Positions 20,874-28,451 are shown, counted from the first letter of the stretch. The stretch is DNA of 64,000 nucleotides from an uncultured Solirubrobacterales bacterium (GCA_963800285.1 CAWDAL010000013.1:227395-291394); one strand, 5' to 3'. The notes: generated by a model not told the origin, from the sequence alone. Numbers and translations: made by a program.

Positions 20874-20877
<4 letters not shown>
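20503..20877 (+). CDS. VOC (glyoxalase/bleomycin-resistance/dioxygenase) family protein
   Basis: A 124-aa protein with [17 protein letters not shown]...FADPDGNGW motifs. GGAG Shine-Dalgarno lies 8 nt upstream. Confidence 0.85.
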
Positions 20878-21821
<944 letters not shown>

Positions 21822-21873
21822 GGACGGGCGAGGATAGCCAGGCGGCAAACGAGCGGCGCCAGATGAGTCGCAG

Positions 21874-22419
21874 CTACCGGAGGCGTTGCACCGTCGCTCG
21901 CGCGAAGCCGAAGCTCTCGCGCCTGACGTGCCTGATCCTGGAGGTGCCCTGGACGTCGATGTGGATCCGCTGCTGGTCGGCGAAGGTCACCGGCGTGCGG
22001 ATCTTCGGGTTGAAGGGATCGGTCTCCAGGAAGTAGGTGTCCGGAGTGATGAAGGTGAGCACCGCTCGGCCCTTGGCATTCGCCTTGAATGGCGGGGACC
22101 CCGGCGCCGGCGAGACCGGCGCGACGTCGCAGAAGTAGAACTCGCCGCACTGCAGCGTGGTGGGAGGCGGCTCGATGAAGACGGCGATCTTCGCCTTCGG
22201 CGCCATCCGAGAGATCGAGATGGTCTCGGGCTGGCCCGGGGTGACGAAGCCGTCGGAGCCGACCTTCGCCTTCAGGAAGATGAACTTGGTCTTCGGCTTG
22301 GATTTGGAGGAGACGTCGGCTCGGGGACTGCCCGCGGCGCCGGTCACCGGCAGGATCGCGGCGCACGCCAGCGCGACGAATCCCGTGACGAATCTGTGGT
22401 TTCCCCTCCCCGTAGGCAC
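21874..22419 (-). CDS. exported hypothetical protein, divergent from the ECF sigma gene
   Basis: GTG start followed by signal-like [26 protein letters not shown]3 bias. No family recognised. Start is uncertain. Confidence 0.45.
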
Positions 22420-22489
22420 GGCGGTGACTATCGCAGGACATCGGCGGCACGGCAAGCGCGGTTCAGACTCCCAGTTCTGGGTGCGCCGA

Positions 22490-22538
22490 ATTCGCAAATT
22501 GCGGCGGATTTGGGAACCCGTCTCCGCAAATTGCGAAT
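22490..22538. promoter_or_regulatory. inverted pair of 15-mers (ATTCGCAAATTGCGG / CCGCAAATTGCGAAT) flanking a GGAAC -35-like motif, upstream of the ECF sigma gene
   Basis: Copies lie at 22490-22504 and 22524-22538. Each contains the internal palindrome CGCAA-A-TTGCG. GGAAC is at 22513-22517. Confidence 0.45.
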
Positions 22539-22590
22539 GTGGCCGCTGGCCAAACGGGGCGAATAGTGGCAGGTTTCGACTCACCCGGAT

Positions 22591-23967
22591 GTGTCGGAGG
22601 TGAGCCGTCTGGGTCAGTTGGGAGGAACAACCGGTCGAGCCGGGGCCGACGCTCGATCCGCAGACGAGGCCGCTGAGGCAGTCGCCTCGCCGGACTCGCG
22701 CCGCCGCGCGGCGAGCGCGCTGATCGAGACTCATGACGCCGTCTTTCGGCGAACGGCGCGGCGCTATTCCATCTGCGCCGACGACGCCGAGGATGCCTAT
22801 CAGCGGGCCCTCGAGATTCTCCTTACGAAAGCCCCTCCCATCGAGGGCGACTCGCTGGTGCGGTGGATGCAGACGGTCACCAAGCGCGAGGCGCTGGCGG
22901 TGCGTCGCCAGAGGGAGCGCCTCCTCGGCTCGCATCGGACCGCGACGTCGGAGGGGGACGACGACCGGGATCCGCTCGACTCCCTGGCGTCTGAGAGCCC
23001 AGGACCGAACGATCGCCTCGCCAGGCGCGAGCGAGTCATCCGCAGCGGCGAGGCGCTCAATGCTCTGAAGCCGCAGGAGGTCCGAGCCCTGACCCTCAAG
23101 GCCCAGGGCTACTCGTACGCCGAGATCGGAGAGATCACGGGCTGGTCCTATACGAAGATCAACCGCTGCATGGCGGAGGGCCGGAAGCGGTTCCTGGAAG
23201 TCTTCGCCGAGATCGAGGACGGCCGTCGCTGCGATCAGCTCGCCGACGCGCTCTCTCAGATGGCCGATGGAGAGAGCGCCAACGGCTCGACGGATGCACT
23301 CGAGTTCCATTTGAGGAGCTGTGCAGCCTGTCGCGCGAAGCTGCGCGCCTACCGGGCGATCCCGGACAAGGTCTTCGAGCTCATGCCCGCCGGACCCCTG
23401 CTGGACCAGTCGATGGGCGGCCATCCGCACCAATGGCTTGCCGAGCGCGCTGGCGCGATGGTGGACAAGGTCCGAGAAGCCGGCTACTCGCTGATTTCGC
23501 GGGGAGGTGGCGGGAGCGGAAACGCCGCGTCAGTTGCGGCGGCCGGCGGCTCTCGCGGAGCTGGAATGGCTGCGGTCGCGAAGGTGCTGGCGATCTGCGG
23601 CGCGACCGCGGCGGGCGGAGCCACCTGTGTGGCCACGGGTGTCATTGACCCCGGGGCGATCGCCGGCGGCTATGACCACGACCAGGCAGCGTTGGAGAGA
23701 CCGGCGCATCCGACGGCAACCACTGTGCCCGAGATTCGGACGACTCCGACGCCGACCGCCCCAGAGCCTTCCCCGACCAAGTCGGTGGAAGCCACGAGCC
23801 CGCCGCCGCCCACTCCGACCCAACAGAAGACGCGCCAATTCGGAGTTGAGGCTGCGGGCTCCGGCTCCTCATCCGGGAGCAGCAGCGGGGAGTTCGGCGG
23901 CCCCTCTCCCGGAGGAAGCGCCCCCTCTGGCGGCGGCGGCTCGGGCGGGGGATTCGGAATCGAATGA
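22591..23967 (+). CDS. ECF (sigma-70 family) sigma factor fused in one ORF to a zf-HC2 (ZAS) anti-sigma domain, one TM helix and a Pro/Thr- then Gly/Ser-rich extracytoplasmic tail
   Basis: Region 2 DAEDAYQRALEILL. Region 4 LKPQEVRALTLKAQGYSYAEIGEITGWSYTKINRCMAEGRKRF. This is directly followed by CDQLADALSQMADGE...HLRSCAACRAKL. TM is AAVAKVLAICGATAAGGATCVATGV. Confidence 0.75.
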   Translation: MSEVSRLGQLGGTTGRAGADARSADEAAEAVASPDSRRRAASALIETHDAVFRRTARRYSICADDAEDAYQRALEILLTKAPPIEGDSLVRWMQTVTKREALAVRRQRERLLGSHRTATSEGDDDRDPLDSLASESPGPNDRLARRERVIRSGEALNALKPQEVRALTLKAQGYSYAEIGEITGWSYTKINRCMAEGRKRFLEVFAEIEDGRRCDQLADALSQMADGESANGSTDALEFHLRSCAACRAKLRAYRAIPDKVFELMPAGPLLDQSMGGHPHQWLAERAGAMVDKVREAGYSLISRGGGGSGNAASVAAAGGSRGAGMAAVAKVLAICGATAAGGATCVATGVIDPGAIAGGYDHDQAALERPAHPTATTVPEIRTTPTPTAPEPSPTKSVEATSPPPPTPTQQKTRQFGVEAAGSGSSSGSSSGEFGGPSPGGSAPSGGGGSGGGFGIE

Positions 23968-24048
23968 TGCTCAGCGTTGGGAGGGCAGAGCTTTCGGAGC
24001 GAGGTCCTTATTGGGGAGATGACTTTCGGTGAGGCAGAGGAGGAGACG

Positions 24049-25609
24049 ATGACCCGACTCGGACCGTTCCCTGGGATCCGCAGCTGGATCGCCACGGTTG
24101 CAGTGCTGCTGGTCCTGGCTGTCGCCGCGCTAGCGGCCCTGTTTCCGGCCACCGCAGAGGCTGACTACAGCGTTGTGCAGTGTGTCCCACCGGCCGTGCC
24201 TTACACGGACGCTGGCAAGGTGGCGGTCGGCGCCTACAGCATCTGGGGCACAAACGAATGTGGAAGCGGCACCTTCTATGGGTTGAGGCTGTATACGGGC
24301 CGCGACACTGGCTGGACGGCGAACGGAGCGGAGTTGGCCTGGCGCTTTAGCGCCCCGCCCGCGACCGGTTTCAGTACAGCGAGCGCCACCGTTCACTACG
24401 GCAATGACGGCGGTTTTGCCGCCGCGTCCTTCAGCAACGGGCAGCCGGCGTTCAACGTTTCTGCGACCTGCGGCACGCCGGCGAGCTGTTGGACGACCGC
24501 CTCGGCGAATGGGGCGACGCATCTTCGAGGTCCGCCTGCAGTGCTTCAAGTCGCCCAACTGCCACAGCGACTGGGCCTACGCCTGGATCACGAACTTCAA
24601 CGCCACCGTCCACGACGCCTTCGCCCCCGGCATCTCCGCCGCCGGCTCGTTGCTGAGCGGCTCGGTCGTACATGGTGTTCAGAATCTGCGGGCGGTCGCA
24701 ACAGATCAGGGCGGTGGAGTGCGGGCCGTCGACCTGTACGTGAACGGGATCCACTCTCGCGGGGTTGACCTCTGCCCCCCGTCATCCGATGGGCACTACA
24801 CGTTGCTCCGACCTTGCCCTCTGTCCTCGACCCAGCATCTCGCGGCCGACACCGAGAGGGATCCGGGCTGGACCAACGGCCCCAACGACGTCCTGATCTG
24901 TGCACGCGACGTGAGCGGCAACACGTCGTCGCCCTGCCTGCGCAGGACCGTCTACGCGGACAACACCTGTCCGGCATCCGGCGGCAGGGCGGCAGCCGAG
25001 CTCGACGCCGGGGCGGACGTGGGTGGCCGGCTCAGCGAGAGGGCGGCTGTGACCTCGAAGGCCGAACCGGTGATCCGAGGCACGCTGGAGGACGGCGCGG
25101 GCCAGCCGGTCTCCGGCGCGACCGTCTGCGTCTACGAGACGGTTGATCTACCGGATGCGTCGAGGGATCTCGTCGGTTCCGCCACCACCCAGGGCAATGG
25201 CCGCTTCGCCACCCGGCTCGACGCGGGCCCCTCTCGCCGCGTGGACTTTGTCTACCGCTACAACGACCGGGTACTCGGCGACCGAGTCCAGCTCGACTCG
25301 CGCGTGGTTCCGGCGCTGCGAATCAACCGGAAGAGCTTGACGAACGGTCAGGCGGCGCGCTTCCGTGGTCACGTCCCAGGACCGAACGCAGACGCACGCG
25401 CCGTAGCGATGCAGGCGCGGGTCGGTCGCAAATGGCGCACCTTCAAGCAACTGCGCACCGACTCCGAGGGGCGGTTTCGCGGCAAGTACCGCTTCACGCA
25501 GACCGTGGGTCGAGTCCGTTACGTCTTCCGGGCGCTGGTGAAGCGCCAGGGCGGCTATCCCTATGAGCCAGGGGGCTCCCATCGGCGCCGGATCCTTGTG
25601 CGCGGCTGA
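24049..25609 (+). pseudogene. exported/anchored hypothetical protein with C-terminal carboxypeptidase-regulatory-like domain; frame broken by an extra G in the G4 run at 24511-24514
   Basis: ATG is preceded by GAGGAGGAG. Signal/anchor is IRSWIATVAVLLVLAVAALAALFPATAEA. ...CWTTASANG continues in the next frame as RRIFEVRLQCFKSPNCHSDW.... IRGTLEDGAGQPVSGATVCVYE...GNGRF is the CarboxypepD_reg-like motif. Confidence 0.6.
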
Positions 25610-25616
25610 GCGGGCT

Positions 25617-26007
25617 CTATTTGCCCGGCTTGGCCCGTAAGCACAGTGCGTAGGCTGCGACCGTGCTGTCCCCTGGCCCAGCTCCTTGCTGCACAAACCA
25701 CCCGTCTAACCCCGGGCGGGATGCGCCTAAGGGACCGCCTGGCGAAACCACGGTTCCTCCTCCACCGAAAAGCCGTTCGCCGCGCTTGCATGGCGCAAAG
25801 GCGCTGAACTGCCCCGTCTTCCTGGGCGACCCGTACGCCCGCGAGGTCGCTGGCGGTGACGTTATGAGGCTTGATTGAACTACTGGTCACGCTGTTCTTC
25901 GGCGCGTTGCTCCCCGCGATCGCCGTGGCGCCGCCCGCTACGGCGATGATCAAGGCCAGAGTTGCCGTCACGTTGGCGTAGTTGAGGTGCCTTCTAAGCC
26001 GATGCAT
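25617..26007 (-). pseudogene. small N-terminally anchored hypothetical protein; frame broken by an extra C/G in the run at 25812-25815
   Basis: MHRLRRHLNYANVTATLALIIAVAGGATAIAGSNAPKNSV...VRVAQEDG, then QFSAFAPCKRGERLFGGGGTVV...STVAAYALCLRAKPGK in the adjacent frame after removing one G. The continuation was hand translated. Confidence 0.5.
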
Positions 26008-26100: not shown

Positions 26101-27150
26101 GTGACTCGTAGGGAGCAAGGCTTTCTCGCGGCGACAGCTGCGATCACAGCGATCGCAGGCGTCCTCCGATACTCCAACGCGACCGCGGTGCTCGCCTTTG
26201 CTGCTGCCACCCTGGCGCTCGCCGGGCTCGCTTGGGTCGTGGCCCTCGCCACGGAGCAGGTCGGCCTTCGCTTCGGTCCCGCGGTCACCGGCTTCATGCA
26301 GTCCACCCTCGGCAACCTGCCCGAGTTCTTCATCGTCCTGTTCGCGCTCGGGTCGGGCGAGGTGGTGGTCGCGCAGACCTCCCTGATCGGCTCGATCTTC
26401 GCCAATGCGCTGCTGGTGCTCGGGCTGGTGATCGTCACGGGGACTCTCCAAGCCGACGGGGGCTGCATGCGCTTCCGGCAGCGGCTGCCGCAGGACACGG
26501 CGACGCTCCTGCTCGTCTCGCTCTTCGTGATCGTGATCATCGGCCTCTCGATCGCCTCCTCGGACAAGGCGAGCCACCACATCGAGGGGCTCTCGAACGT
26601 GGGGGCGATCTGTCTGCTCGTCGTCTACGGGGCGTGGATCTGGGGCTACCTGCGCTCTGACCCGCAGCGCGGCGAGGAGGAGGCCGCACCGCGCCTGTCG
26701 ATGACCTTCGCGGTCGTGCTGCTGGCGATCGCTGGCACCGGCGCCGCCTTCGTCTCGGACTGGTTCATCCACGCCCTCGACCCAGCGGTGGAGTCGCTCG
26801 GCATCTCCAAGGCGTTCGCCGGCCTCGTGATCGTTGCCGTCGCCGGCAACGCGGTCGAGAACTTCACCGGCATCTTCCTCGCGGCGAAGGGCAAGTCGGA
26901 CCTGGCGATCTCGGTGGTGAAGAACTCGGTCGCCCAGATCGCCGCCTTCCTCTTCCCGGCCCTGGTGCTGACCTCGTTGCTCTTCACCACGCACCTGACC
27001 TTCGCGCTCGCGCCGGTCTACATCGGCGCGCTCTTCCTCACCGCGCTCGCGATCTGGCAGATCACCGGGGACGGCGAGGCCCAGATGTTCGAGGGAATCG
27101 CGCTGATCGCGATCTACGTGGTGCTGGCGGCGTTCGCGCTGTACGACTGA
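26101..27150 (+). CDS. cax: Ca2+/H+ antiporter (CaCA/CAX family)
   Basis: Two alpha-repeat motifs (GNLPEFF and GNAVENF), ~11 TM segments, 349 aa. Confidence 0.88.
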   Translation: MTRREQGFLAATAAITAIAGVLRYSNATAVLAFAAATLALAGLAWVVALATEQVGLRFGPAVTGFMQSTLGNLPEFFIVLFALGSGEVVVAQTSLIGSIFANALLVLGLVIVTGTLQADGGCMRFRQRLPQDTATLLLVSLFVIVIIGLSIASSDKASHHIEGLSNVGAICLLVVYGAWIWGYLRSDPQRGEEEAAPRLSMTFAVVLLAIAGTGAAFVSDWFIHALDPAVESLGISKAFAGLVIVAVAGNAVENFTGIFLAAKGKSDLAISVVKNSVAQIAAFLFPALVLTSLLFTTHLTFALAPVYIGALFLTALAIWQITGDGEAQMFEGIALIAIYVVLAAFALYD

Positions 27151-27159
27151 GTTCGCTTA

Positions 27160-28451
27160 CTAGGCCGCGTCCTCCGCCAGGTCGTCCGCGAGCCCCTCGA
27201 CGATCCGCGGGTCGAACTGCTTGCCCGCGTTGCGCCTCAGCTCGGCCAGGGCCTCGTCCTCGGTGAGGGGACGCTGGTTGGGGAGCTTGGCGGTGAGGAC
27301 GACGTACTCGACGCAGACGGCGAGGATGCGGGAGCCGAGGGGGATGCGGTCGCCGGCCAGGCCGTCCGGGTAGCCGCTGCCGTCGTAGTTCTCGTGGCTC
27401 GAGCGGACCAGCTTCGCGACCGGGGCGAGGGCCGGGGCCGAGGCGATGATCTCGGCGGCGGCGCCGGGGAGGTCACGGAGCAGGATGGACTCGGAGGCCG
27501 GGAGATGGCTCTGGCTCTCGATGGCCGAGTCGGGGACGGAGAGCATGCCGACGTGCTGGAGGCGGGCGGCGAAGACCAGGTCGTCGAGCTGCTCGCGGCT
27601 CAGCCCCAGGGACCGGCCGAGCGACTGCACGTGGAACGAGACGGCGCGCAGGTGCGAGCCCATCTCGGGGTGGCGCTTGTTGAGGATCGCGAGCAGGGTG
27701 TCGTGGGCCTGGTGCTTCGCCGACTCGCGCTGGTGGCGGCGGTCGGCGGCCAGGCGGCGGCCCGCGATTTGGAGTGCCTCCTCCGCGGTGGTCGCGTCGT
27801 CGGGGAGGATCACGACGCCGTGGGCACGGCCAATCGTCGACTCCGCGCCGGGCTCATCGACGCCGGAGAGGAAGATCGCCATCGCGACCTCGTTCGGATC
27901 GCGCTCATACGCCGGGACGAGGGCGCAGAACTGGCCGCCCTCGATCCGGTAGGGGTGTCCCTCGAGCCCTGCGACGATCTCGGAGAGCTCCTTTCCGAAG
28001 GCGCGCAGGAGCCGGTCGCCGGCTCGGAAGCCGAGGCGGTCGCGGTAGTCGGCGACGCCCTCGAGCTCGAGCAGGACCAGGACCTGCGGCGCGCGTCGGA
28101 GGGCTTGAGGATCTCCTCGAGGTCGTGGCTGAGCTGCAGCCGGTTGGGGAGGCCGGTGGTGGTGTCCACCCGGGCGCGGCGGTGGTTGTTCTGGACGAGC
28201 CAGGTGAAGACTGCTCCGAGGAGAGCGAGGCCGAGCCAGAAGACGAGGTCGGTGACCTCGCCCTGGACGTGGTTGTAGACCAGCAGCGTGGCCGCGAGGC
28301 TGGCGAAGAGCGCGGGGCCGGCGACCGACCACTCGCGCTCGAAGGCGCGCGCCCGCTTCCAGGCGCGGCGCAGGCGAGATGGCCGCTTGTCGCTCGGCCG
28401 GTAGGCGCGGCGGGCCCGCGCGGAGGTTTTCCCAAGCGTGTGGGCTTCCAT
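27160..28451 (-). pseudogene. membrane-anchored degenerate-GGDEF / HD-GYP protein; frame broken by a 1-nt deletion near 28080-28100
   Basis: The N-part has two TM helices and DTTTGLPNRLQL...KPSDAR. It continues in the other frame as QVLVLLELEGVADYRDRLGF...RIEGGQFCAL. The HD-GYP part is HENYDGSGYPDGL. Start could be 28451 or 28508. Confidence 0.75.

What the first reader, a model, noticed from the sequence alone, without database searches (positions are those of the whole stretch)
21874..26007. ECF sigma factor covalently fused to its ZAS anti-sigma/TM module, embedded among exported proteins
ORF 22591..23967 runs without interruption from sigma regions 2 and 4 (…GWSYTKINRCMAEGRKRFLEVFAEIE) into a zf-HC2 anti-sigma N-domain (…CDQLADALSQMADGE…HLRSCAACRAKL). 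A single TM helix follows, then a Pro/Thr- and Gly/Ser-rich outside tail. ECF sigma and anti-sigma are normally separate, co-transcribed proteins. A single-chain, membrane-tethered version implies activation by proteolytic release or intramolecular rearrangement. Its neighbours are a divergent exported 181-aa protein, a downstream exported protein with a CarboxypepD_reg-like domain, and a convergent small anchored protein. All three have unknown function and could be the regulon or sensor partners.
Basis: partly seen in the sequence, partly recalled or inferred. Interest (0 to 1): 0.7.

Follow-up and report, generated by a model that had tools for sequence, protein, structure and literature searches.

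The report
Membrane-tethered sigma/anti-sigma fusion protein
An uncultured soil actinobacterium encodes a transcription switch (an ECF sigma factor) joined in one chain to its own zinc-finger inhibitor and a membrane anchor; the fusion is real and widely conserved, but the design is already known from other Actinobacteria.

Summary
ORF 22591-23967 (+, 458 aa) carries Sigma70_r2, Sigma70_r4_2 and zf-HC2 in one frame, each above its Pfam cut-off. It has a complete ZAS motif (C214-x25-H240-x3-C244-x2-C247), one Ala/Gly-rich hydrophobic segment (aa 323-352) and a 106-aa Gly/Pro/Ser/Thr tail.

The fusion is not an indel artefact. Sigma and ZAS lie in one frame in 79 of 85 related loci from Solirubrobacterales MAGs, including all 28 short-read assemblies. 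Among the 150 best 50%-identity cluster representatives, 130 have the ZAS motif in the same chain as the sigma match.

The architecture is a published kind. ECF48, ECF52 (SCO4117) and ECF53 of Actinobacteria are sigma factors with a C-terminal ZAS plus transmembrane extension. P. putida IutY is an experimentally dissected sigma/anti-sigma hybrid released by Prc and RseP. This clade lacks the ECF52 carbohydrate-binding domain. It has a conserved C-terminal EFG motif and a conserved downstream secreted partner.

The most likely mechanism is cis-inhibition relieved by regulated proteolysis. A redox/zinc switch is the main rival. The downstream neighbour is a single 519-aa gene broken by a one-base frameshift at 24521, probably a long-read consensus error.

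Verdict: genuine, ordinary for specialists, a new member of a known kind.

The parts
22591..23967 (+). Single-chain ECF sigma / ZAS anti-sigma / TM protein, 458 aa
   Evidence: ORF; domains; full-length homologues. The GTG at 22591 is invariant in the near and intermediate clades (alignment A4).
22720..22920 (+). Sigma region 2 (aa 44-110)
   Evidence: PF04542, 27.0 bits against a cut-off of 24. AF2 pLDDT is about 88. Foldseek matches ECF sigmas.
23050..23190 (+). Sigma region 4 (aa 154-200)
   Evidence: PF08281, 27.8 bits against a cut-off of 25.7. AF2 pLDDT is about 94.
23230..23334 (+). zf-HC2 / ZAS anti-sigma N-domain (aa 214-248) with C214, H240, C244 and C247
   Evidence: PF13490, 23.8 bits against a cut-off of 22.2. 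Weak match to TIGR03988 RsrA over profile positions 1-40. The four ligand residues are invariant in A1 and A2.
23557..23646 (+). Predicted single transmembrane segment (aa 323-352), Ala/Gly-rich with two conserved Cys
   Evidence: Only hydrophobic stretch, KD19 maximum 1.59. AKVLAICGATAAGGATCVATG is nearly invariant. K331 lies on the N-terminal side and D353 on the C-terminal side.
23647..23964 (+). Extracytoplasmic low-complexity tail (aa 353-458) with conserved TPxQQKxRQF, EFGGP and terminal GGGFGIE motifs
   Evidence: Composition; motif conservation. The far clade ends in AGEFGP.
22493..22535 (.). Two copies of the 11-bp palindrome CGCAAATTGCG (22493-22503 and 22525-22535), a candidate operator
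   Evidence: Conserved upstream of the gene in the near and far clades. Unique in the window.
22556..22630 (+). Conserved non-coding/5' block GGGGCGArT.GTGgcA..TTTC..CTCA-N7-GTG, a probable promoter and (near-)leaderless start
   Evidence: Alignments. Occurs once in the window. No Rfam hit, no consensus RNA structure and no sigma-70 consensus.
24049..25609 (+). Downstream secreted beta-sandwich protein (519 aa after removing base 24521), the conserved operon partner
   Evidence: Frames and frameshift. Present in about 72 of 75 loci with enough flank. In far-clade locus L077 its start overlaps the sigma gene's stop by 4 nt. Only sub-threshold Big_7 and CarboxypepD_reg hits.
21874..22419 (-). 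Divergent small exported protein (181 aa), near clade only
   Evidence: No family hit. Conserved TTGCCG-N17-GATAGT on the minus strand upstream (my reading).
20874..21848 (-). SDR NDP-sugar dehydratase/decarboxylase-like gene, divergent from the sigma gene in all 85 loci
   Evidence: Pfam Epimerase and GDP_Man_Dehyd. No NCBIfam model reaches its cut-off. Synteny.
25620..26007 (-). Convergent small N-terminally anchored protein, with a frame change near 25803-25840 in this window
   Evidence: two tblastn frames against the intact 149-aa L003 protein. Present in the near clade.

Best explanation
What it is. This is a genuine one-polypeptide ECF signalling device. It consists of a cytoplasmic sigma2-sigma4 module (aa ~36-205), a class-I zinc-binding anti-sigma domain that begins 8 residues after sigma4 (aa ~212-300), a Gly-rich linker, one transmembrane helix (aa 323-352, N-in/C-out) and a 106-aa unstructured outside tail.

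Resting state (inferred). The ZAS domain folds back on sigma2/sigma4 in cis. The whole protein sits in the membrane, so the sigma cannot join RNA polymerase.

Activation (inferred by analogy with IutY, RsiW/RseA and the model proposed for ECF52). An extracytoplasmic event exposes or trims the tail (site 1). The conserved C-terminal EFG(P)/GFGIE peptide or the co-transcribed secreted beta-sandwich protein may be involved. A site-2 intramembrane protease then cuts the helix-destabilised Ala/Gly-rich TM segment. Cytoplasmic proteolysis removes the anti-sigma part, or a cut occurs at the junction. The free sigma domain then transcribes its operon, which includes at least the downstream secreted protein.

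What is shown and what is not. Shown: domain identity, the fusion, its conservation and the operon partner. Inferred: topology, cis-inhibition, every proteolytic step and the regulon. My confidence in the identity is about 0.95. The confidence given below is for the proteolytic mechanism.
For: Domains are above curated cut-offs. Foldseek's best matches are ECF sigmas: Mtb SigE, SigL and SigH, sigmaE, AlgU and SigW.

The ZAS ligand set C-x25-H-x3-C-x2-C is invariant. The sigma4-to-ZAS junction has a fixed length and the motif I-E-x-G-x-x-C, even in representatives only 32-40% identical.

The fusion sits in one frame in 79 of 85 loci and in all 28 short-read loci. Of the 150 cluster representatives, 130 carry the ZAS motif in the sigma chain and 102 also have a hydrophobic segment after it.

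The TM segment is nearly invariant and rich in Ala and Gly.

The downstream secreted protein is conserved. In the far clade its start overlaps the sigma gene's stop by 4 nt, which suggests translational coupling.

Literature: ECF48, ECF52 and ECF53 are 'expected to be regulated by' proteolysis of a fused ZAS-TM extension (PMC8999054). A truncated SCO4117 sigma domain is active, and excision by a protease is proposed (PMC5826349). The IutY hybrid is released by Prc and RseP (PMC5411451).
Against: No protease partner was identified.

AF2 gave no confident inter-domain packing (pTM 0.32 and 0.36). It modelled the last sigma4 helix running straight into anti-sigma helix 1, so cis-docking is unproven.

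After a site-2 cut the anti-sigma domain would still be covalently attached. An extra step is therefore needed that has no direct precedent.

The tail has no folded sensor domain.

The ZAS motif has, from my memory of the family, the same spacing as redox-sensitive RsrA (C11, H37, C41, C44). That fits a non-proteolytic switch equally well.

I could not recognise a clear ECF-type autoregulatory promoter.

Hydrophobicity of the TM segment is borderline (1.59).
Confidence: 0.5

Rival explanations
1. Redox or zinc switch without proteolysis. Oxidation or metal loss at the RsrA-like C/H/C/C site unfolds the ZAS domain and frees sigma2/sigma4 in cis. The sigma then recruits RNA polymerase while still tethered to the membrane, or after slow turnover.
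For: The complete ZAS ligand set has RsrA spacing. There is a weak RsrA-model match covering residues 213-252 (TIGR03988, E 0.0012, below cut-off). No sensor domain lies outside. Additional Cys residues are conserved within Solirubrobacterales in sigma2 (C62), sigma4 (C193) and the TM segment (C336, C346). Soluble ZAS factors are described as working this way (PMC8999054).
Against: Many ZAS proteins with the same motif are not redox sensors; this is established knowledge, e.g. membrane-bound RsiW is regulated by proteolysis. The extra Cys residues are not conserved in more distant representatives. The strongly conserved TM segment and outside motifs would have no role. A membrane-tethered sigma holoenzyme has no precedent.
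Confidence: 0.22
2. The fusion is an assembly or sequencing artefact: an indel merged separate sigma and anti-sigma genes.
For: The window probably comes from a long-read MAG, and such MAGs show frequent frameshifts. In long-read loci 11 sigma genes are broken or truncated and 25 of 55 downstream genes are broken, including this window's at 24521.
Against: The errors break genes; they do not create this frame. The same single frame is present in all 28 short-read assemblies and in 79 of 85 loci, at 42-99% identity. The junction has a fixed length across hundreds of clusters. The junction DNA has no homopolymer run and no stop in frame.
Confidence: 0.01
3. The sigma-like module is not a working sigma. 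It would be a decoy or protein-interaction domain, as in PhyR, anchored at the membrane.
For: The sigma core is divergent. Pfam scores are barely above cut-off here and below cut-off in the far clade (20.0 and 19.4 bits). The best PDB sequence match is only E 0.011. Region 2.3/2.4 reads WMQTVTKREALAVRR, which by my reading departs from the usual WL..IarN...D motif.
Against: The DAEDxxQ core-binding motif and a typical region-4 helix-turn-helix are invariant. TIGR02937 is clearly passed. Sigma-only relatives of 175-191 aa, 56-61% identical over the matched stretch, exist as free-standing genes, one of them in the same epimerase neighbourhood. No receiver or other output domain is present.
Confidence: 0.05

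Closest known systems
ECF52 sigma factors (SCO4117 of Streptomyces coelicolor; PMC5826349)
   Same: Actinobacterial ECF core followed in one chain by a zf-HC2 zinc finger, a transmembrane region and a proline-rich outside extension. No separate anti-sigma gene. Proteolytic excision of the sigma domain is proposed.
   Different: ECF52 ends in a carbohydrate-binding module; this protein has no folded outside domain. Its tail instead carries short conserved peptides (QQKxRQF, EFGGP, GFGIE). Its neighbourhood differs: an NDP-sugar SDR and a secreted beta-sandwich protein. Placement of the sigma core in the ECF52 clade could not be tested.
ECF48 and ECF53 (Actinobacteria; review PMC8999054)
   Same: They are described as a C-terminal fusion to a ZAS zinc finger plus one or two TM helices that act as a built-in anti-sigma, with proteolysis expected.
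   Different: No member has been characterised. ECF53 is reported to include members with glycosyl-hydrolase or carbohydrate-binding domains (PMC10766802), which are absent here. Group membership is defined by sigma-core phylogeny, which I could not run.
IutY of Pseudomonas putida (ECF243 sigma/anti-sigma hybrid; PMC5411451)
   Same: One polypeptide with a cytosolic ECF sigma, one TM helix and an outside regulatory part. Release by site-1 (Prc) and site-2 (RseP) proteases has been shown experimentally. An outside part of about 50 residues or fewer becomes a direct RseP substrate.
   Different: IutY is FecI/FecR-type, works with a TonB-dependent receptor and has no cytoplasmic ZAS domain. In the present protein a complete cytoplasmic anti-sigma domain stays attached after any membrane cut.
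Two-gene ZAS systems (SigR-RsrA, SigW-RsiW, SigL-RslA, RpoE-ChrR)
   Same: An ECF core plus an anti-sigma N-domain with H-x3-C-x2-C and an upstream Cys. RsiW and RslA are single-pass membrane proteins.
   Different: Those are two separate co-transcribed proteins. Here the anti-sigma domain's usual N-terminus is joined directly to the sigma C-terminus by a fixed 8-residue junction.

Membership tests
ECF (group 4) sigma-70 factors | Sigma region 2 and region 4 present | tested here: met
   PF04542 scores 27.0 against 24. PF08281 scores 27.8 against 25.7. TIGR02937 scores 54.1 against 42.9.
ECF (group 4) sigma-70 factors | No regions 1.1 or 3; short sigma2-sigma4 linker | tested here: met
   No Sigma70_r3 or r1 hit at E<=1. 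The linker is aa ~113-141 and is disordered in AF2.
ECF (group 4) sigma-70 factors | ECF sigma fold | tested here: met
   The best Foldseek PDB matches are all ECF sigmas, led by 9m9e_F SigE (E 3.7e-4) and 6dv9_F SigL. Global TM-scores are low because domain orientation and the tail are not modelled.
Class I (ZAS) anti-sigma domain | H-x3-C-x2-C with an upstream Cys, at the N-terminus of the inhibitory domain | tested here: met
   C214, H240, C244 and C247 are invariant in 53 sequences. PF13490 scores 23.8 against 22.2 and 36.4 bits in far-clade L077.
Class I (ZAS) anti-sigma domain | Helical bundle that binds sigma2 and sigma4 of the cognate sigma | tested here: inconclusive
   AF2 predicts helices at 187-216, 218-225, 234-243, 245-264 and 279-302, but with pTM 0.32 and 0.36 and no confident packing.
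Class I (ZAS) anti-sigma domain | Zinc binding and inhibition of the sigma | not testable with these tools
   Needs biochemistry.
ECF52 (SCO4117 type) | ECF core + zinc finger + TM + Pro-rich extension in one chain, Actinobacteria only | tested here: met
   All named relatives are Solirubrobacterales or Actinomycetota MAGs, apart from a few short, probably mis-binned contigs.
ECF52 (SCO4117 type) | C-terminal carbohydrate-binding module | tested here: not met
   No domain hit after the TM segment. The tail is 106 aa of G/P/S/T-rich sequence with pLDDT below 50.
ECF52 / ECF48 / ECF53 | Sigma core clusters with the group in the ECF classification (group HMM or phylogeny) | not testable with these tools
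   No reference sequences or group HMMs were reachable. The supplements of PMC7826278 are not held.
IutY / FecI-FecR cell-surface signalling hybrids | FecR-type outside domain and an adjacent TonB-dependent receptor | tested here: not met
   No FecR or TonB-receptor family hit in the protein or its neighbours.

The most novel reading that the evidence does not exclude
The tail is not a passive linker. Its invariant C-terminal EFG(P)/GFGIE peptide is a bait held by the co-transcribed secreted beta-sandwich protein. In this reading the sigma fusion and that protein form a two-protein envelope sensor, perhaps reading the polysaccharide made via the always-adjacent NDP-sugar enzyme. That sensor gates site-1 cleavage, and release of sigma from its covalently attached ZAS domain requires a new junction-specific processing step. 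This would be a distinct, so far unclassified ECF group confined to uncultured Solirubrobacterales.
Probability: 0.1. Interest if true: 0.55.

Novelty: new member of a known kind. Interest (0 to 1): 0.3.

Why it matters
Single-chain sigma/anti-sigma proteins are the 'one-component systems' of the sigma world, and almost none has been studied. One ECF52 member has genetic data, and IutY is the only hybrid whose proteolysis has been shown.

This family is large. It has 378 clusters at 50% identity with E<=1e-30, and relatives in 142 species-level genomes. It is compact and lacks a sensor domain. It could therefore serve as a minimal model for one open question: how is a sigma freed from an anti-sigma domain it is covalently bound to?

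For genome annotation, the practical result is that these genes should be called as one protein. The practical caveat is that long-read MAGs of this order carry many frameshifts in the neighbouring genes.

Tried and rejected
1. Indel-merged genes: rejected by conservation in short-read assemblies and the fixed junction.

2. Intramolecular docking by AlphaFold2, on the full length and on aa 33-305: domains were confident but the arrangement was not (pTM 0.32 and 0.36). Foldseek rmsd values are lower against anti-sigma-bound sigmas (12-14 A) than against RNAP-bound ones (about 21 A), but they are too poor to use.

3. PDB sequence searches: the whole protein found nothing at E<=0.01. The profile gave only Mtb SigE at E 0.011. 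The anti-sigma part alone gave only chance hits.

4. ECF group assignment: no reference sequences, HMMs or supplements were available.

5. RNA element in the conserved 5' block: no real Rfam hit (a chance snoRNA match at E 0.036) and RNAalifold predicted no pairs. The hairpin I saw by eye is not supported.

6. Autoregulatory ECF promoter: no sigma-70 consensus, and the conserved block and palindrome occur nowhere else in the 64 kb. The near and far clades do not share one clear -35/-10 layout, so this stays unresolved.

7. Natural split versions: the 'anti-sigma only' representatives P0135 and P0153 start at internal Met194 inside the sigma4 helix, so they are fragment calls. True sigma-only relatives (P0222, P0223) have no ZAS gene next to them.

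8. My first Pfam and NCBIfam scans and my first tblastn query for the 181-aa neighbour used the wrong frame. The Pfam scan was repeated in the right frame, and the intact L003 orthologue was scanned against both libraries, with no hit.


Full report
**1. Observation.** The window is high-GC DNA (about 65-72% GC in the region profiled).

- Pfam places Sigma70_r2 at aa 44-110, Sigma70_r4_2 at aa 154-200 and zf-HC2 at aa 214-248. Each is above its gathering score, though not by much.
- The general ECF model TIGR02937 is passed clearly, at 54.1 bits against 42.9.
- The zinc-finger part carries the full ZAS ligand set C214-x25-H240-x3-C244-x2-C247. From my memory of the family this is the spacing of RsrA (C11, H37, C41, C44). 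The RsrA model TIGR03988 aligns to residues 213-252, but below its cut-off.
- The junction DNA (23190-23235) has no stop, no homopolymer run and no plausible internal start.
- The only hydrophobic stretch is aa 323-352. Its Kyte-Doolittle 19-residue maximum is 1.59, borderline but typical of Ala/Gly-rich actinobacterial helices. K331 precedes it and D353 follows it.
- The remaining 106 residues are Gly, Pro, Ser and Thr rich.

**2. The fusion is not an artefact.** A protein search returned more than 100 full-length relatives at 63-99% identity and 430-520 aa, from many independent metagenomes.

- A scan of one genome per species found relatives in 142 genomes. The 80 loci kept are nearly all labelled Solirubrobacterales, or more broadly Actinomycetota or Thermoleophilales.
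- A few hits are labelled Acidobacteriota, Gemmataceae or Myxococcaceae. They sit on 2-4 kb contigs and are probably binning errors.
- In 79 of 85 loci a single tblastn segment in one frame runs from sigma region 2 past the ZAS motif. The six exceptions are all in MAGs whose contig names indicate long-read assembly (MFD..., contig_N).
- All 28 loci from short-read assemblers (k141_, NODE_ and similar names) show the intact fusion.
- An exhaustive HMMER search of 1.84 billion cluster representatives gave 378 clusters at E<=1e-30. Of the best 150, 130 carry C-x20-32-H-x3-C-x2-C in the same chain and 102 also have a hydrophobic segment after it.
- Representatives only 32-40% identical keep the same junction length and the motif I-E-x-G-x-x-C.
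- The anti-sigma domain starts where free ZAS proteins start (my reading). The gene therefore looks like an old end-to-end join of a sigma gene and the anti-sigma gene that followed it.

**3. Anatomy and conservation.** In alignments of 19 and 53 family members the following are invariant or nearly so:

- the sigma core, including DAEDAYQR and GYSYAEIGEITGW.YTKINR;
- the four zinc ligands;
- the segment RAKLRA.R..P;
- the TM segment AKVLAICGATAAGGATCVATG.

The Pro/Thr stretch after the membrane is variable. The tail nevertheless holds short conserved peptides: TPxQQKxRQF[SG][FV]E, EFGGP and the very C-terminus GGGFG[IF]E. The far clade, 42-55% identical, ends in AGEFGP. Some EFG peptide at or near the C-terminus is therefore a family character.

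AlphaFold2 models sigma2 (pLDDT about 88) and sigma4 (about 94) with confidence and the ZAS helices moderately (75-78). The rest is unstructured. Foldseek's best PDB matches are all ECF sigmas. At sequence level the core is remote from any solved sigma; the best is Mtb SigE at E 0.011 with a profile.

**4. Neighbourhood.** Tblastn with the neighbouring proteins across the 85 loci gave the following.

- The divergent SDR NDP-sugar dehydratase/epimerase gene (window 20874-21848) is present in all 85 loci.
- The downstream secreted protein is present in about 72 of 75 loci with enough flank.
- The small divergent exported protein (21874-22419) and the convergent anchored protein are found only in the nearer clade.
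- In far-clade locus L077 the sigma gene's stop overlaps by 4 nt the start of a 671-aa secreted protein. The last ~170 residues of that protein match the C-terminus of the near-clade 528-aa protein. Sigma fusion plus secreted protein is thus a conserved two-gene operon.
- That partner has only sub-threshold Ig-like and CarboxypepD_reg hits.

In this window the partner gene is split between two frames. Removing base 24521 restores a 519-aa protein that aligns end to end with the intact L003 protein (50.6% identity, E 1.6e-173). The closest relative, L005 (99.35% identical over 13.4 kb), lacks that base but has three other frameshifts. Such breaks occur in 25 of 55 long-read loci and in 0 of 20 short-read loci. 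I therefore read them as consensus errors rather than decay. The convergent gene also changes frame near 25803-25840.

**5. Upstream region.** The intergenic DNA carries two exact copies of the palindrome CGCAAATTGCG (22493-22503 and 22525-22535), found nowhere else in the window. At least one copy is kept upstream of the gene even in the far clade. This suggests an operator for an unknown dimeric regulator.

Next comes a roughly 75-nt block (22556-22630) that is more conserved than the coding sequence after it. Within it an invariant CTCA lies 7-8 nt before an invariant GTG (22591), with no Shine-Dalgarno sequence in between. That GTG is in frame everywhere and is followed by coding-type variation. 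It is probably the start codon, and the mRNA may be leaderless or nearly so; this is inference.

I could not define an ECF-type -35/-10 pair shared by all clades. There is no Rfam family, no conserved RNA fold and no sigma-70 consensus. Autoregulation is therefore untested.

The small divergent gene has a conserved TTGCCG-N17-GATAGT on its own strand (my reading). This argues that it is not driven by this sigma.

**6. Mechanism.** Shown: the protein is a bona fide ECF core joined to a ZAS anti-sigma domain and a membrane segment, and selection maintains all three parts and the operon partner. Inferred: N-in/C-out topology, cis-inhibition and the activation route.

I favour regulated proteolysis, at about 0.5. 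Three lines of evidence support it:

- the TM segment is nearly invariant and full of helix-destabilising Ala and Gly, as site-2 protease substrates are (my knowledge of the field);
- the outside tail carries conserved peptides with no other obvious role;
- the literature proposes this route for the analogous ECF48, ECF52 and ECF53 proteins (PMC8999054), reports that a truncated SCO4117 sigma domain is active (PMC5826349), and shows it experimentally for the IutY hybrid with Prc and RseP (PMC5411451).

The weak point is specific to ZAS fusions. After the membrane cut the inhibitor is still covalently attached, so either a junction cut or controlled degradation from the new C-terminus is needed.

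The main rival, at about 0.22, is a redox/zinc switch at the RsrA-like site that frees the sigma without cleavage.

AlphaFold gave no confident domain packing (pTM 0.32 and 0.36) and drew sigma4's last helix continuous with anti-sigma helix 1. Structure prediction therefore neither supports nor refutes cis-docking.

**7. Comparison with what is known, and novelty.** The design (ECF core, zinc finger, TM, Pro-rich extension, restricted to Actinobacteria) is that of ECF52, and at the level described in reviews also of ECF48 and ECF53. The ECF52-defining carbohydrate-binding module was looked for and is absent, so I do not file the protein under ECF52. Group membership proper rests on sigma-core phylogeny, which I could not run.

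Both homologue searches returned only uncultured Solirubrobacterales-type sequences, and a literature search found nothing on this family. It may therefore be unclassified.

Free-standing sigma-only relatives of 175-191 aa, 56-61% identical over the matched stretch, also exist. One lies in the same epimerase neighbourhood.

Overall this is a new member, perhaps a new group, of a known kind. It is useful as a minimal sensor-less example but not surprising to a specialist.

Noticed in passing
window 24049-25609 (frameshift at 24521): The downstream secreted-protein gene is split into two frames by one extra base. Deleting it restores a 519-aa protein collinear with the intact 528-aa orthologue. 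Breaks of this gene occur in 25 of 55 long-read loci and in 0 of 20 short-read loci.
   Followed up: yes
window 25620-26007 (-), frame change near 25803-25840: The convergent small anchored protein matches its 149-aa orthologue in two different frames, so it is also frameshifted in this assembly.
   Followed up: partly
window 23600-25830 compared with L005: Between two genomes 99.35% identical over 13.4 kb, 45 of 61 substitutions and 16 of 26 gap positions fall in this 2.2-kb stretch, which covers the tail of the sigma gene and the two downstream genes. The cause could be local hypervariability, strain mixing in the consensus or relaxed selection; it is not resolved.
   Followed up: partly
window 22493-22503 and 22525-22535: An exact 11-bp palindrome, CGCAAATTGCG, occurs twice 32 bp apart. 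It is conserved upstream of the orthologous gene down to 42% protein identity and is unique in the window. It is a candidate operator with an unknown binder.
   Followed up: partly
window 22556-22630: A non-coding/5' block is more conserved than the adjacent coding sequence. An invariant CTCA lies 7-8 nt before an invariant GTG start with no Shine-Dalgarno sequence, which suggests a possible leaderless mRNA. There is no Rfam hit and no conserved fold.
   Followed up: partly
L046 4977-6461; L060 4965-5609: In L046 one open frame joins sigma aa 1-246 directly to the C-terminal part of the downstream protein, implying a ~1.5-kb deletion or misassembly. In L060 the sigma gene stops at aa 191 and the Na/Ca exchanger gene follows at once.
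   Followed up: no
L086 259-825; L087 1967-2494: Free-standing sigma-only relatives (188 and 175 aa; 60% identical to the query's sigma part over the matched stretch) have no ZAS gene beside them. L087 keeps the divergent epimerase neighbourhood, with an acetyltransferase gene inserted.
   Followed up: partly
window 27160-28332 (-): A GGDEF-like plus HD-GYP-type protein. Its best NCBIfam match is the NosR-family c-di-GMP phosphodiesterase, at 127 bits and far below the cut-off. It lies just beyond the Na/Ca exchanger gene (26101-27150).
   Followed up: no
window 22405-22440 (-): A conserved TTGCCG-N17-(TGC)GATAGT, which resembles a housekeeping promoter with an extended -10, lies upstream of the small exported-protein gene. 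A GGGAGGGGAA ribosome-binding site follows it.
   Followed up: no
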